NCBI GenBank assembly: GCA_944384465.1
Contig: CALWTK010000003.1
Location: 34,383-98,382, forward strand
Length of the DNA: 64,000 nt
Origin: an uncultured Clostridia bacterium
Lineage (GTDB): Bacteria; Bacillota; Clostridia; Christensenellales; UBA1242
Direction: 5' to 3'
Every line of letters begins with the position of its first letter. Within the stretch, counting starts at the first letter, position 1. The notes below the pieces were generated by a model that was not told where the DNA came from, searched no databases, and was given only the letters and a program-made list of their open reading frames with translations. Positions 23,650 to 26,235 of this stretch are shown here, piece after piece. The position numbers and the translations under genes are program-made.

Positions 23650-24345
23650 CTACACAATTTTTACCAATTTGTTGTTCACCGCATCACAACTGGTCAAAAA
23701 ATATTTCACACCATTGATTTCATTATACAGCATATTAGGATTGACATATCCATGCAGATGCCCAAAGACAACATACGACACACCATAATCTTCAATCATT
23801 TTTGTATATTCGCTTGGTTCACGCTTGTTATTAAAAGGCGGATAGTGAGTGATATAAATTATTTTTTCGTCATTTTTTTGCAATTTTTTCGCATTTTTTA
23901 GCGAAAGTTCTAATCTTATTAGCTCTCTTGAATAAATTTTTTTATTTTCTTCAGTATCGAACTTTCCTTCAGGAATCAGCCATCCCCTGTTCCCACAAAA
24001 AATAAAATCGCCAATCTTAATCGCATCATTTTGTAGGGCGTAAGTGTTTTTTGGTAGTTTTTCTCTCACTTTACTAACGCTGCTCCACCAGTAATCATGA
24101 TTACCACGGATGATAATCTTCTTTCCTTTCAATTGATTTAAAAACTCAAAATCAGGCACCACTTCTTCCAATTTCATCGCCCAAGAATAATCTCCAGCTA
24201 AGATCACGACATCATCATCACTTACAAGTTCATTCCAACTAGCGACAATCTTATCCAAATAGTTGTGCCAAACAGGGCCAAATATATCCATTGGCTTCGT
24301 GTTGTTAATATCAAGATGTAAGTCACTAATTGAAAATATATTCAC
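23650..24345 (-). CDS. calcineurin-like metallophosphoesterase
   Basis: Motifs DLHLD, GDYSW, GNHDYWW, HYPP and GHLHG. GTG start (24345..24343) behind AAAGGAGAAA. It occupies the slot where mraZ normally sits. Confidence 0.85.
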   Translation of the reverse strand: MNIFSISDLHLDINNTKPMDIFGPVWHNYLDKIVASWNELVSDDDVVILAGDYSWAMKLEEVVPDFEFLNQLKGKKIIIRGNHDYWWSSVSKVREKLPKNTYALQNDAIKIGDFIFCGNRGWLIPEGKFDTEENKKIYSRELIRLELSLKNAKKLQKNDEKIIYITHYPPFNNKREPSEYTKMIEDYGVSYVVFGHLHGYVNPNMLYNEINGVKYFLTSCDAVNNKLVKIV

Positions 24346-24716
24346 TTCTCTTTCTCCTTTTTATTTTCAATATTAGGGACGCCACATCGCAGATTCCTGT
24401 CGCTAGACAGCTATCAAGATGTAAGTCACTAATTGAAAATACTTTCACATTTTCTCCTTTTAATTTTCAATATTAGGGACGCCACATCGCTCCCCGGGGT
24501 CCCCGCAAGAATTCATTCGCAGTGGGGCTAACTTGGGGTCCCCGCAAGAATTCATTCGCAGTGGGGCTAACTTGGGGCCCCATAAGCACTCGTGCGTAAT
24601 GGGGCTAGCAGAACAAACAAGCAACAAGCTTATGATTGCAAGCACGCGAAGCAATCTAGCATAGGCGCAGTTTGTGATGCAGTCACTAATTGAAAATATA
24701 TTCACCATTTTCCCTT
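24310..24716 (-). repeat. three direct copies of the phosphoesterase RBS/start module
   Basis: Copy 1 is 24390->24310 (genuine). Copy 2 is 24490->24413 (about 80 bp, near-identical, offset 103 bp). Copy 3 is 24716->24681 (GGTGAATATATTTTCAATTAGTGACT). Confidence 0.9.
24496..24610. repeat. tandem 39/39/37-bp GC-rich hairpin repeat
   Basis: GGGGTCCCCGCAAGAATTCATTCGCAGTGGGGCTAACTT occurs twice, identically (24496-24534 and 24535-24573). A diverged third unit, GGGGCCCCATAAGCACTCGTGCGTAATGGGGCTAGCA, is at 24574-24610. 22 of the 39 unit positions are G/C. Confidence 0.9.
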
Positions 24717-24846
24717 TTGATAAAGTTAATAGTAAACATTGGAGCACTTAATTTATCAAATTTAATTAAAATTCCAGCCATTTACTAATCATAATAAGCA
24801 ACAAATTTTTTTAAATTATGAAAATATTATATCATTTTTTAGATAT

Positions 24847-25437
24847 TTAATCAATTTTTTTGTCCTGCTGAGATTTTTTTTCATTTCTCTCGTACAATAA
24901 TGCTAATTTGGGACGGTTGTAGCGCTGAACGATTACTGGCAATATTTGAATTACAAAATTGACTATAGCCATTGGCAAGCCTACGATATACCACAACTTT
25001 AGATTTATAAATATCACAAATATACTTAACACCGCACTTATCACATGCATGACTTCAGCATAGACTGTCTCTTCCATAAATTTATAAATATACCGATTGT
25101 CGTTCATATCAAGCACTTTATCCTTACCAAATCCTGCAAGTGCCTTACCCGTCTCTGGTATTTTATCTTTCCAATTGCGGACTTTTAATTTTAAATACAG
25201 TTTCGTCTCCCATGGCCTGACCTTGTATATCTTATTAAATGGATTCACCCATTTTTTTGGAAGAATGCGCACCAATATGGCGACAAGCGCGTCTATCACA
25301 AATAACGCGAAAAATGTATATATAATAGTAATCAATATTTCTCCATCCGTTACAGATAAGAAATTAAGTCCCACAGACAGACTTAAAATTGTGGTAAAAA
25401 TCACACCTATTACAATAATACATACATATAATATCAT
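24847..25437 (-). CDS. membrane protein, possibly of the CrtO-like acyltransferase family
   Basis: 196 aa with 4 TM segments. The C-terminal QRYNRPKL and the central W..K.P...GK...F.K pattern recall, from memory, the glycosyl-4,4'-diaponeurosporenoate acyltransferase family. Confidence 0.45.
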   Translation of the reverse strand: MILYVCIIVIGVIFTTILSLSVGLNFLSVTDGEILITIIYTFFALFVIDALVAILVRILPKKWVNPFNKIYKVRPWETKLYLKLKVRNWKDKIPETGKALAGFGKDKVLDMNDNRYIYKFMEETVYAEVMHVISAVLSIFVIFINLKLWYIVGLPMAIVNFVIQILPVIVQRYNRPKLALLYERNEKKSQQDKKID

Positions 25438-25569: not shown

Positions 25570-26235
25570 ATGTCTTTTTATACAGATGCAAGACCAGGCA
25601 TTTTCCCAGGTCAAACAAACAATGTTATGAATGGACTTTGTGAACGTATTTGCATCCAAACAACAAAAGTGTTTGATGCTTGTATGAACCAATCACAAAT
25701 TGAAGATTATTCGTTAACATTGACTAATTTCAATCCAGCAGCTCCCACAACCCCACTCACATTTGTCAGCGGAAGTTCTGTAGGAAGCAATGCAACAGTA
25801 ACTGATTTGATAATAACCAGATTTGATGATAGACCAAACTTTGCTCGTGTGCAAGCTAATATAAATATCCCTGTTACAGTTACATATACAGATGCAAACA
25901 ATGTACCAGGCACAGCTGAAGGTACTATCACTCTCGCTCAAGATGTCGTATTGTATGTTCCTCAACCATCACTTACTCCAATTGATGTAGTCGCATTTGG
26001 AAGCGCAGTGATCGCTAGCGGTGTATACAATACAACTACAGGCGGATTCACAATTTCCGCATGCGTTACAACAATATTAAAAGTTGTAGCAACCGTGGAT
26101 GTATTAGTACCAAGTTATGGATATTGTCCTATCCCGCCTTGCACTCCATTCGCAGGTTCGACTGTGTGCCCTGGAGTGTTTGACCTACCACTATATCCAA
26201 CCGCCGTGTCTCCACAATCAACAAATTCTAGATAA
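25570..26235 (+). CDS. Thr/Val/Pro-rich, cysteine-bracketed protein of unknown function
   Basis: 221-aa ORF behind a strong RBS (TAGGAGGTTAAAAA) and followed by a terminator. Cys at positions 24/28/38 and 165/186/191/200. No signal peptide. Confidence 0.7.
   Translation: MSFYTDARPGIFPGQTNNVMNGLCERICIQTTKVFDACMNQSQIEDYSLTLTNFNPAAPTTPLTFVSGSSVGSNATVTDLIITRFDDRPNFARVQANINIPVTVTYTDANNVPGTAEGTITLAQDVVLYVPQPSLTPIDVVAFGSAVIASGVYNTTTGGFTISACVTTILKVVATVDVLVPSYGYCPIPPCTPFAGSTVCPGVFDLPLYPTAVSPQSTNSR

What the first reader, a model, noticed from the sequence alone, without database searches (positions are those of the whole stretch)
24478..24680. GC-rich structured island with tandem 39-bp hairpin units showing compensatory changes
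An island of about 200 bp sits in a very AT-rich intergenic context and is visibly GC-rich; 22 of 39 positions in the repeat unit are G/C.

It contains two identical 39-bp units (24496-24534 and 24535-24573) and a diverged 37-bp third unit (24574-24610). Each unit holds a 27-nt hairpin: CCCCGCAAGAATTCATTCGCAGTGGGG in units 1 and 2, and CCCCATAAGCACTCGTGCGTAATGGGG in unit 3.

The third unit differs at paired positions in a compensatory way. Positions 6/22 change C-G to T-A, 10/17 change A-T to C-G, 12/15 change T-A to C-G, and 5/23 change G.T to A-T. This argues that the fold, as RNA or as cruciform DNA, is under selection.

The next 70 nt can form a three-way junction: GCTAG/CTAGC closes AAGC..GCTT and ATTGC..GCAAT. 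I could not match this to any RNA family, ribozyme, riboswitch or CRISPR repeat that I know.

It could be a REP/MITE-like element, a structured 5' leader of the dcw operon, a stand-alone sRNA, or a protein-binding array.
Basis: seen in the sequence. Interest (0 to 1): 0.7.

Follow-up and report, generated by a model that had tools for sequence, protein, structure and literature searches.

The report
Mobile GC hairpin repeats in gene leader
The GC-rich island is a strain-variable cluster of small, selfish-looking DNA hairpin repeats, similar to REP or Rickettsia palindromic elements. It sits in the first codons of the gene that heads a chicken-gut bacterium's cell-division operon, and that gene survives only because its start region has been duplicated around the insert.

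Summary
There are two identical 39-bp units plus a diverged third at 24496-24610, each a 27-nt GC-clamped hairpin, and covariation is confirmed on 23 distinct family members.

It is not a conserved leader RNA. The island lies inside nested duplications of the 5' end of the minus-strand metallophosphoesterase gene that heads the dcw operon. The layout is A1-E(island)-U1-A2-B2-X-U2-A3-B3-gene. A is the start codon plus 8 codons. U is an inverted copy of A-B carrying a Shine-Dalgarno sequence.

Sister Candidatus Onthoplasma species have an empty site. Strains of this species carry 0-4 hairpin units of at least 4 core types, and 1-3 or more higher-order repeats.

Hairpins with the same architecture (TTAR-CCCCAYTRCG...ATGGGG-ACCCC) occur in unrelated low-GC metagenomic bacteria. 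There they lie inside RNase P RNA (P12 loop), in frame inside a pgi gene, between tRNA genes, and at gene ends. Four of these sites have 24-65-bp flanking duplications.

There is no Rfam, viral or literature match.

Best reading: an undescribed family of small mobile stem-loop repeats, like REP/RPE elements or mitochondrial GC clusters, amplified here by unequal recombination. The transposition mechanism and any regulatory role are inferred, not shown.

The parts
24826..24854 (-). Promoter-like site TTGATT-17-(TG)TATAAT just after the upstream CrtO-like gene. It is the likely operon promoter that transcribes the whole array in the gene sense.
   Evidence: Consensus scan, 10 of 12 matches with an extended -10. 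Not shown experimentally.
24682..24705 (-). A1: first copy of GTG plus 8 codons (VNIFSISD), contiguous with the ancestral upstream region P. It now opens an 81-codon junk ORF that runs through the island.
   Evidence: Identical to A3. P-A resembles the single upstream region of sister species L004/L005. The ORF frame is not conserved between copies.
24605..24681 (-). E5: 77-nt non-repeat part of the insert, holding the GATTGC/GCAATC stem. Found only in clade I strains; origin unknown.
   Evidence: No similarity elsewhere. Variants lie mostly in the loop, and one allele has an 8-nt deletion.
24574..24610 (-). Hairpin unit H1 (core 24578-24604, CCCCATTACGCACGAGTGCTTATGGGG on the minus strand).
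   Evidence: 42.5 bits.
24535..24573 (-). Hairpin unit H2 (core 24540-24566, CCCCACTGCGAATGAATTCTTGCGGGG on the minus strand) plus ACCCC and the linker AAGTTAG.
   Evidence: 50.1 bits.
24496..24534 (-). Hairpin unit H2, second identical copy (core 24501-24527).
24449..24495 (-). U1: GGGGAG plus an inverted copy of A-B (core 24463-24489) plus a Shine-Dalgarno AAAGGAG (24454-24460). It can pair either with A1, enclosing the island, or with A2-B2, leaving SD and GTG in a loop.
   Evidence: Direct repeat D3. Inverted similarity to A reached by 0 to 12 of 500 shuffles. Folds.
24412..24448 (-). A2-B2: second copy of the start codon plus 12 codons (2 substitutions). It opens a 40-codon uORF that ends inside A3.
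24390..24411 (-). X: short centre (CTGTC-TAGC-GACAG hairpin) of the inverted duplication A2B2 / U2.
   Evidence: X-U-A-B units are repeated 1-3 or more times in clade II strains.
24346..24389 (-). U2: second copy of the inverted A-B block (core 24363-24389) plus SD (24354-24360). It serves the real start codon.
23650..24345 (-). Intact metallophosphoesterase gene (231 aa, PF00149), starting with A3-B3 (24309-24345). It is the first gene of the rsmH-ftsL-pbp... dcw cluster.

Best explanation
**What it is.** The island is a head-to-tail cluster of three copies of a roughly 38-39-bp GC-rich stem-loop repeat. Each unit reads, on the gene-sense strand, TTAR - CCCCAYTRCG...YRYGGGG - ACCCC. Structurally this is a 6-bp clamp, an asymmetric internal loop with an unpaired C, a 2-3-bp covarying top stem and a 3-6-nt loop. 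I read it as a member of an undescribed family of small non-coding, selfish or mobile palindromic elements of the REP / Rickettsia-palindromic-element / mitochondrial-GC-cluster kind.

**How it got here.** In one lineage of Candidatus Onthoplasma it landed, together with a 77-nt companion segment, at the apex of a palindrome made of the gene's own translation-initiation region. The order of these steps is inferred.
1. The first ~37 nt of the gene were duplicated in inverted and then direct orientation, producing the ~100-bp X-U-A-B unit with its own SD.
2. The hairpin block came to lie between an upstream A copy and U.
3. Unequal recombination between the 40-67-nt U-A repeats and between the GGGGACCCC-linker-CCCC junctions has since expanded, contracted and shuffled both levels of repeat. 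This gives each strain a different array.

**Why the gene survives.** The most downstream copy of SD plus start plus first codons is intact. The array is transcribed with the operon and is probably neutral or mildly modulatory.

**How units move.** This is not shown. The most likely route is recognition of the folded single strand by a hairpin-specific enzyme supplied in trans (HUH/Y1 RAYT-like), or copy-choice or fold-back template switching at the hairpin.
For: **Shown**
- Hairpin with covariation.
- Empty site in sister species at 73-82% amino-acid identity.
- Strain polymorphism within the same protein cluster:
  - the window, L001 and L084 carry H1-H2-H2;
  - L094 carries two E units, H1-H3-H4-H2 and H1b-H4-H2b;
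  - L087 carries single-H3 units alternating with X units;
  - L091/L099 carry H4-H3b-H3c in a different upstream context;
  - L089/L096 carry no hairpin units but 2-4 X-U-A-B units.
- Cyclic 249-nt unitigs and 'goes back 255-257' joints show tandem E units. Depth is 15.5 against 6.5 in the flank.
- The ORF through the island shifts frame between copies, so it is non-coding.
- Hairpins of the same architecture occur in unrelated contigs:
  - three copies in 10.5 kb of L104;
  - inside the RNase P RNA P12 loop, and 20 nt after the rnpB 3' end, in L105;
  - in frame in pgi as an extra ~27-aa loop;
  - in a tRNA-operon spacer.
- Long flanking duplications that keep the gene intact occur at four independent sites:
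  - the window, 24/37 nt;
  - L049 tRNA-Met 3' end, ~50 nt;
  - L101 nusB 3' end, 65 nt;
  - L106 rarA 3' end, 39+30 nt.
- In L049 and L104b the core is flipped relative to its flanks. This is expected for a DNA-level palindrome, not for an RNA motif.
- U is an inverted copy of A-B.
- A metatranscriptome contig spans the array at depth 12, against 5.9 for the gene.
- No Rfam hit.

**From the literature**
- REPs are 20-40 bp, occur inside ORFs, and are found inserted in target palindromes (PMC3733652).
- Yeast mitochondrial GC42 clusters show merger and shuffling (PMC4478555).
Against: - Copy number in this organism looks low. There is one locus in the 64-kb window, and none in 0.5 Mb of relatives' loci except L049. 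That is unlike classical REPs.
- No transposase, integrase or RT gene is evident from inspection of the window's ORF N-termini, which were not profile-searched. The Pfam scan of ORFs near the metagenomic copies found none.
- No clean short target-site duplication is seen.
- The unit pattern had no hit in 185,579 species-representative genomes, although that pattern was narrow.
- The metagenomic relatives were found with a pattern built from this locus. Part of their similarity is therefore selected for. Convergence on a common protein-recognition shape cannot be excluded.
- X-U-A-B units are retained in both clades, and U can pair alternatively with upstream or downstream A copies. This would also fit a selected regulatory device.
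Confidence: 0.62

Rival explanations
1. A selected cis-regulatory leader of the dcw operon. The chain of mutually exclusive helices (A1:U1, U1:A2B2, A2B2:U2, U2:A3B3), together with the uORFs starting at A1 and A2, would act like a translational attenuator. Repeat number would set expression of the metallophosphoesterase-rsmH-ftsL-pbp genes. The GC hairpins would serve as stable roadblocks or RNA stabilisers.
For: - The array lies between a strong promoter-like site and the first gene and is present in RNA.
- U pairs with A-B over ~27 bp, leaving SD and GTG in a 23-nt loop (z = -2.1 for the real translation-initiation region).
- X-U-A-B units are kept in both clades.
- In L087 and L094 the E-unit ORF stops at GTGA, overlapping the next start codon.
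Against: - It is absent in sister species carrying the same operon.
- Copy number and composition differ between near-identical strains.
- The same hairpin occurs inside rnpB, inside pgi and at 3' ends of genes elsewhere.
- Hairpin cores can be flipped.
- The U1 fold is no better than shuffles (z = -0.64).
Confidence: 0.17
2. Locus-specific by-product of replication errors. A quasi-palindrome at the gene start provoked fold-back or template-switch duplications, and the GC hairpins arose or were captured locally. On this reading there is no mobile family. The resemblance to the metagenomic hairpins would be convergence, or an artefact of the search pattern.
For: - The X-type unit contains no foreign DNA, only inverted plus direct copies of A-B.
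- In L049 the tail holds an inverted copy of the tRNA T-arm (I2).
- The pattern search was biased toward this locus's consensus.
Against: - All five distinct metagenomic hits share unforced features: AT before GGGG in 5 of 5, R at position 8 in 5 of 5, and a paired top stem.
- Further copies sit nearby in L104 and L105.
- At least 4 distinct covarying cores with identical clamps and linkers are hard to generate locally.
- E5 and the hairpins have no local template.
Confidence: 0.12
3. A processed small RNA array. One version is a type III antitoxin-like tandem repeat (ToxI-like). The other is an antisense sRNA made from the plus strand, which folds better.
For: - There are tandem 39-nt direct repeats upstream of a gene.
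- The plus strand folds with z = -3.6, against -1.35 for the minus strand.
Against: - The downstream gene is a PF00149 metallophosphoesterase, not a ToxN/AbiQ-type endoRNase.
- There is no terminator between the repeats and the gene.
- Units differ in sequence and number, and singletons occur elsewhere.
- No plus-strand promoter was found next to the island.
- No Rfam match.
Confidence: 0.04

Closest known systems
REP elements (repetitive extragenic palindromes; GTAG- and CGTC-tagged families, PMC3733652)
   Same: - A 20-40-nt GC-rich imperfect palindrome with a bulge or mismatch.
- A conserved short tag next to the stem.
- Clustered copies.
- Transcribed with neighbouring genes.
- Occasionally found inside ORFs and inserted in pre-existing palindromes.
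   Different: - The tag is TTAR at the 5' end and ACCCC at the 3' end, not GTAG or CGTC.
- Units are head-to-tail, an arrangement that paper calls negligible for REPs.
- No RAYT gene is known.
- Copy number is very low in this host.
- Similar sequence is found across distant lineages.
- Some insertions carry long (24-65 bp) flanking duplications.
Rickettsia palindromic elements (RPE; described in PMC3733652 and the work it cites)
   Same: - Palindromic selfish DNA in an AT-rich genome.
- Tolerated in frame inside protein genes. For this hairpin family, insertion in a functional RNA gene is also seen (RNase P P12), though that is not claimed here for RPEs.
- Host genes stay functional.
   Different: - From my own knowledge, the classical RPE-1 type is about 100-150 bp and RPEs are confined to Rickettsia. 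PMC3733652 equates the shorter RPE-4 and RPE-6 with CGTC-tagged REPs.
- This unit is ~39 bp with a different consensus.
- The window copy is not an in-frame insertion. The gene was rescued by duplication of its start region.
Yeast and fungal mitochondrial GC clusters, e.g. GC42 (PMC4478555), and double-hairpin elements
   Same: - ~40-nt GC hairpins in very AT-rich DNA.
- Substitutions concentrated in loops.
- Presence/absence polymorphism between strains.
- Merger and shuffling of units into arrays.
- Mechanism unresolved.
   Different: - Those are organellar. They carry short AG/ACT flanking repeats and have no sequence similarity to this family.
- Here the hosts are bacterial chromosomes, and the flanking duplications are long.
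BOX elements of Streptococcus pneumoniae (boxA-boxB(n)-boxC). Comparison from my own knowledge, not tested here.
   Same: - A modular element in a low-GC Firmicute.
- An internal ~45-bp module repeated a variable number of times.
- Stable secondary structure.
- Located in 5' leaders.
   Different: - No sequence similarity was tested.
- BOX is high-copy and dispersed in its host, and has defined A and C end modules.
Type III toxin-antitoxin antitoxin repeats (ToxI)
   Same: Tandem ~36-39-nt direct repeats immediately upstream of a gene.
   Different: - No ToxN-like toxin gene and no terminator.
- Units are heterogeneous.
- Singletons occur in unrelated places.

Membership tests
REP (GTAG/CGTC-tagged, RAYT-associated) | 20-40-nt imperfect palindrome able to fold as a stem-loop | tested here: met
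   The 27-nt core folds at -8 to -14 kcal/mol with a conserved internal loop. Covariation is confirmed.
REP (GTAG/CGTC-tagged, RAYT-associated) | Terminal GTAG or CGTC tetranucleotide | tested here: not met
   The flanks are TTAR (also CTAG or ATAA) at the 5' end and ACCCC at the 3' end in all units.
REP (GTAG/CGTC-tagged, RAYT-associated) | Many dispersed copies per genome, mostly extragenic | tested here: inconclusive
   There is one locus in the 64-kb window, and none in ~0.5 Mb of relatives' loci except L049. Against that, there are 3 copies in 10.5 kb of L104 and 2 in 1.6 kb of L105. No whole genome was available.
REP (GTAG/CGTC-tagged, RAYT-associated) | Cognate RAYT (Y1 transposase) gene in the genome | not testable with these tools
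   No such gene is apparent from the N-terminal sequences of the window's ORFs (no profile search was run on them). None was found among the neighbours of the metagenomic copies. The rest of the genomes is not held.
Rickettsia palindromic elements | 100-150-bp palindromic repeat of Rickettsia, inserted in frame in ORFs | tested here: not met
   The unit is 38-39 bp and the host is a Christensenellaceae bacterium. In-frame insertion is seen only for a relative in L104 pgi.
MITE | 15-30-bp terminal inverted repeats and a fixed short target-site duplication | tested here: not met
   There are no terminal inverted repeats beyond the hairpin itself. Flanking repeats are absent or 24-65 bp and variable in length.
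Type III TA antitoxin array | Tandem repeats followed by a terminator and a ToxN/AbiQ-like endoRNase gene | tested here: not met
   The downstream gene is a PF00149 metallophosphoesterase. No terminator-like site was found.
Any Rfam family (riboswitch, ribozyme, sRNA, leader) | Covariance-model match at or near the gathering score | tested here: not met
   There were 0 hits at gathering score in the window. Only two chance-level hits (E = 2 and 9) appeared in 24250-24850, and both lie outside the island.
CRISPR array | Repeats separated by unique spacers of similar length | tested here: not met
   The units abut one another with only a 7-nt linker.

The most novel reading that the evidence does not exclude
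The hairpin is the active core of a cross-phylum family of ~40-nt mobile elements that insert by an undescribed mechanism. Candidates are fold-back or template-switch copying, or a target-primed, SINE-like route. The mechanism would favour hairpin apexes and gene termini and would generate long, variable (24-65 bp) target duplications. Those duplications, together with an A-rich, SD-bearing tail, rebuild the interrupted gene end. That would explain how such elements survive in rnpB, tRNA, nusB, rarA, pgi and at the head of the dcw operon.
Probability: 0.15. Interest if true: 0.8.

Novelty: new variant of a known kind. Interest (0 to 1): 0.5.

Why it matters
**If the reading is right**
- There is a small palindromic-repeat family outside the GTAG/CGTC REP world. 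It is shared in shape and partly in sequence between gut Clostridia and unrelated low-GC environmental bacteria. It is tolerated inside essential RNA and protein genes.
- The Onthoplasma locus is a natural series of alleles with 0-4 hairpins and 1-3 or more duplicated translation-initiation modules, sitting in front of an essential operon. That series lets one ask two questions directly: how such elements arrive and are amplified, and whether they alter expression.

**Practical consequences**
- The locus breaks short-read assemblies.
- It produces spurious gene calls: 40-100-aa ORFs, and 213-aa versus 231-aa versions of the same gene.
- It would be a sensitive strain marker in chicken-gut metagenomes.

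**If it is only a neutral scar**, it is still a clear example of gene rescue by duplication of a start region.

Tried and rejected
- **Small secreted or lipoprotein-like peptide encoded by the island.** The 81-aa ORF has a signal-peptide-like stretch (ARLLRVLAIISLLLVCS). Rejected: hairpin units are read in different frames in different copies, the C-terminus shifts in L094 copy 2, and L091 has no start codon.
- **Degenerate intein, or in-frame insertion after codon 8.** Rejected: the 257-nt unit is not a multiple of 3, and stop codons lie in U.
- **Viroid-like or excised 219-257-bp circle**, suggested by cyclic unitigs in X17 and X5. Better explained by tandem E units, which are seen directly in L087 and L094, with a depth ratio of about 2.4.
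- **Integron attC site.** The linker GTTAGCC/GTTAACC misses the GTTRRRY consensus, there is no inverted R box, and I saw no integrase among the window's ORFs.
- **DGR template/variable repeats, retron, CRISPR, IS110 bridge RNA, IS200/605 ends.** The anatomy does not fit and I saw no associated gene in the window.
- **Cloning-vector or adapter artefact.** The island contains SmaI, EcoRI x2, ApaI, NheI and HindIII sites. Rejected: the same locus, with allelic variation, is present in many independent chicken-gut assemblies and runs.
- **Phage origin.** Four pattern scans of viral contigs gave 0 hits.
- **General rule that the element's tail is an inverted copy of its flank.** Significant only in the window, and by a separate test in L049. 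Not significant at the other seven sites.
- **Sequence-string search of the literature.** Returned only unrelated primers.
- **Narrow unit pattern against species-representative genomes.** 0 hits.

Full report
**1. The observation**

The sequence at 24478-24680 is as described.
- TRF reports a 39-bp period (score 165) at 24496-24581.
- The repeat finder gives two identical 39-nt units and a third at 67% identity.
- The 27-nt hairpin occurs exactly twice, with none expected by chance.
- GC reaches 0.56 in a window averaging 0.35. The island is the only non-coding GC-rich stretch in 64 kb.

ViennaRNA folds each core as ((((((..(((....)))...)))))). The fourth, 12/15, lies in the loop.

**2.

The same call that finds the 39-mers also finds three copies of a 37-nt block (24309-45, 24412-48, 24669-705) and two copies of a 40-nt block (24351-90, 24451-90). 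The 37-nt block is the start codon plus the first 12 codons of the minus-strand gene 23650-24345. That gene is a PF00149 metallophosphoesterase and heads the rsmH-ftsL-pbp-mur-ftsW-ftsA-ftsZ cluster.

Read in the gene's direction, the locus is:

promoter-like site (24854-24826) - P - A1 - E5 - H1 - H2 - H2 - U1 - A2 - B2 - X - U2 - A3 - B3 - gene (coordinates)

- A is GTG plus 8 codons.
- B is the next 13 nt.
- U carries a Shine-Dalgarno sequence.

U is itself an inverted, slightly diverged copy of A-B (GTCCCTAATATTGAAAAT against GTCACTAATTGAAAATA; 0 of 500 shuffles for the X-type unit). As a result U-SD-A-B folds into a ~27-bp imperfect stem with SD and GTG in a 23-nt loop. A1 can pair with U1 across the whole island. 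The GC island therefore sits at the apex of a palindrome built from the gene's own start region.

**3. Comparative evidence at the locus**

The window comes from a chicken-gut bacterium. The closest species-representative genomes are Candidatus Onthoplasma, Christensenellaceae incertae sedis.

Orthologous loci in sister species (73-82% protein identity) have a single P-A-B-gene arrangement with no U, X or hairpins. This is an empty site.

Contigs carrying proteins of the same 90% cluster show a different array in almost every sample:
- The window, L001 and L084 are identical.
- L094 has two tandem E units, with H1-H3-H4-H2 and H1b-H4-H2b.
- L087 alternates single-H3 E units with X units.
- L091 and L099 (clade II) have H4-H3b-H3c directly before U, in a different upstream context.
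- L089, L096, L086 and L093 have no GC hairpins, but two to four tandem 100-bp X-U-A-B units.

Logan contigs add a fifth core type and alternative E5 sequences. They also contain cyclic 249-nt unitigs and 'goes back 255-257' joints, at about 2.4 times the flank depth. These are the signature of tandem E units rather than free circles.

A true metatranscriptome has a 329-nt contig across the array at depth 12, against 5.9 for the gene. The array is therefore very probably transcribed. The strand is not known.

**4. Coding or not**

An ORF runs from A1 through the island (81 codons here, 61-100 elsewhere) and even looks signal-peptide-like. But hairpin units of 38 and 39 nt are read in different frames in different copies. 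One copy ends in a different frame, and clade II has hairpins without any start codon. The absence of stop codons reflects GC content, not coding.

**5. The hairpin family**

The Onthoplasma alleles contain at least four core types sharing CCCCAYTRCG at the 5' side and YRYGGGG-ACCCC at the 3' side, joined by a 7-nt RARTTAR linker.

A degenerate pattern found nothing in viral contigs. The first, narrow version found nothing in species-representative genomes. A better pattern in JGI metagenomes returned five distinct loci from unrelated low-GC contigs. These share features the pattern did not force: AT before GGGG in 5 of 5, a purine at position 8 in 5 of 5, and a paired top stem. The short stretches held contain further, more diverged copies: three in 10.5 kb of L104 and two in 1.6 kb of L105.

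A covariance model searched over the window and 93 loci (0.6 Mb) found:
- all of these copies;
- the three window units only at 24496-24608;
- nothing in relatives' loci except a weak hit in L049.

On the resulting alignment, 93% of cells pair against 84% in shuffles (0 of 500). Four pairs change on both sides, and sliding the partners destroys the signal.

Caveat: the metagenomic members were selected with a pattern derived from this locus, so part of the sequence likeness is by construction.

**6. Where the relatives sit**
- L105a lies in a 64-nt insertion in the P12 loop of a class A RNase P RNA. L105b lies 20 nt past the 3' end of that RNA.
- L104b lies in frame inside a glucose-6-phosphate isomerase gene. 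Alignment to solved PGI structures breaks at exactly that point and leaves about 27 extra residues.
- L102/L103 is in a tRNA-operon spacer.
- L100 is 13 nt upstream of an MNT/HEPN pair.
- L101 interrupts the 3' end of a nusB-like ORF (my reading of its translation). A 65-nt flanking duplication is present, and the element's tail supplies the last three codons and the stop codon.
- L106 sits in a duplicated copy of the last ~70 nt of a rarA-like ORF, also identified by eye.
- L049, a Christensenellales-like MAG, has two units beside tRNA-Met. They are flanked by a ~50-nt duplication of the terminator and the tRNA 3' end, and the tail contains an inverted copy of the T-arm.

In L049 and L104b the asymmetric core is flipped relative to the TTA...ACCCC flanks. 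That is natural for a DNA palindrome and awkward for an RNA motif.

In all four duplication-bearing sites the intact gene lies on the tail (ACCCC) side. With n = 4 this is only suggestive.

**7. Interpretation**

The behaviour is that of small selfish stem-loop repeats:
- presence/absence between close relatives;
- variable copy number and shuffled unit types;
- occurrence in unrelated genomes;
- tolerance in loops of RNA and protein genes;
- DNA-level flipping.

The closest described kinds are REPs, Rickettsia palindromic elements and mitochondrial GC clusters. REPs are 20-40 bp, sometimes lie inside ORFs, and are sometimes inserted in target palindromes (PMC3733652). Mitochondrial GC clusters show strain polymorphism, loop-biased substitutions, and merger and shuffling (PMC4478555).

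Membership in the REP families proper fails on the defining GTAG/CGTC tag. It cannot be tested for a RAYT gene. Head-to-tail arrays and long flanking duplications are also atypical.

At this locus the higher-order structure needs only unequal recombination between the 40-67-nt repeats, once the first inverted-plus-direct duplication and the first hairpin block existed.

How a hairpin unit reaches a new site is not shown. Two candidates fit the anatomy: a hairpin-specific single-strand enzyme acting in trans, or copy-choice and fold-back synthesis at the hairpin.

**8. Rivals**

A selected attenuator-like leader is the serious alternative. The alternative A:U helices, the uORFs and the stop/start overlaps are all there. 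Against it stand absence in sister species, free variation between near-identical strains, and the hairpin's unrelated contexts elsewhere.

A purely local replication scar explains the X-type units well. It does not explain the multiple covarying cores or the outside relatives.

A ToxI-like array or an antisense sRNA lacks the toxin gene, the terminator and the promoter.

**9. Verdict**

The element is an apparently undescribed variant of a known kind of small palindromic repeat, caught in an unusually informative, hypervariable position. Interest is moderate (0.5). The most novel reading still open is a new insertion mechanism with long, gene-restoring target duplications. I rate it at about 15%.

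Noticed in passing
L007:3130-3290 (rabbit-gut MAG, orthologous locus): A different, larger GC-rich palindromic island (GGGGCTAGGCACAAAACGC...GCATTCTAGCCCCGCCCC) lies about 150 nt upstream of the orthologous metallophosphoesterase gene. It is unrelated in sequence to the window's units apart from the GGGGCTAG/CTAGCCCC ends. This intergenic spot may be a recurrent landing site for GC palindromes.
   Followed up: no
window 23650-24345 (-): A PF00149 metallophosphoesterase occupies the position directly upstream of rsmH, at the head of the dcw cluster. From my own knowledge, many Firmicutes have mraZ there. The arrangement is conserved across the 80 related loci.
   Followed up: partly
window 24706-24830, compared with L089:900-1150 and L091:960-1190: The 200-300 bp between the CrtO-like gene and the array is completely different in three groups of strains whose flanking genes are more than 90% identical. 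The intergenic region itself has been replaced, not only the repeats.
   Followed up: partly
window 25570-26235 (+): A 221-aa ORF with no Pfam hit (MSFYTDARPGIFPGQTNN...; Cys-, Thr- and Pro-rich) is conserved next to this locus in Onthoplasma contigs. Function unknown.
   Followed up: no
L105:1088-1546: A class A RNase P RNA carries a 64-nt insertion in the P12 loop that contains a family hairpin. A second hairpin lies 20 nt past its 3' end.
   Followed up: yes
window 24478-24640: Type II restriction-site palindromes are dense in this stretch: CCCGGG, GAATTC x2, GGGCCC, GCTAGC, AAGCTT, plus GGGGWCCCC. They probably follow from stacked GC palindromes. No possible link to restriction-modification was examined.
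   Followed up: no
Protein cluster of P0001: The same gene is called as 231 aa or as 213 aa (starting at M19) in different assemblies, and many contigs end inside the array. The repeats disturb both assembly and gene calling.
   Followed up: partly
L104:2262-4603 and L104:7361-8635: The metagenomic contig richest in hairpins encodes several consecutive ~260-aa ORFs and a 424-aa ORF with no Pfam match, next to a HerA-like ATPase and an MNT/HEPN pair. The organism was not identified.
   Followed up: no
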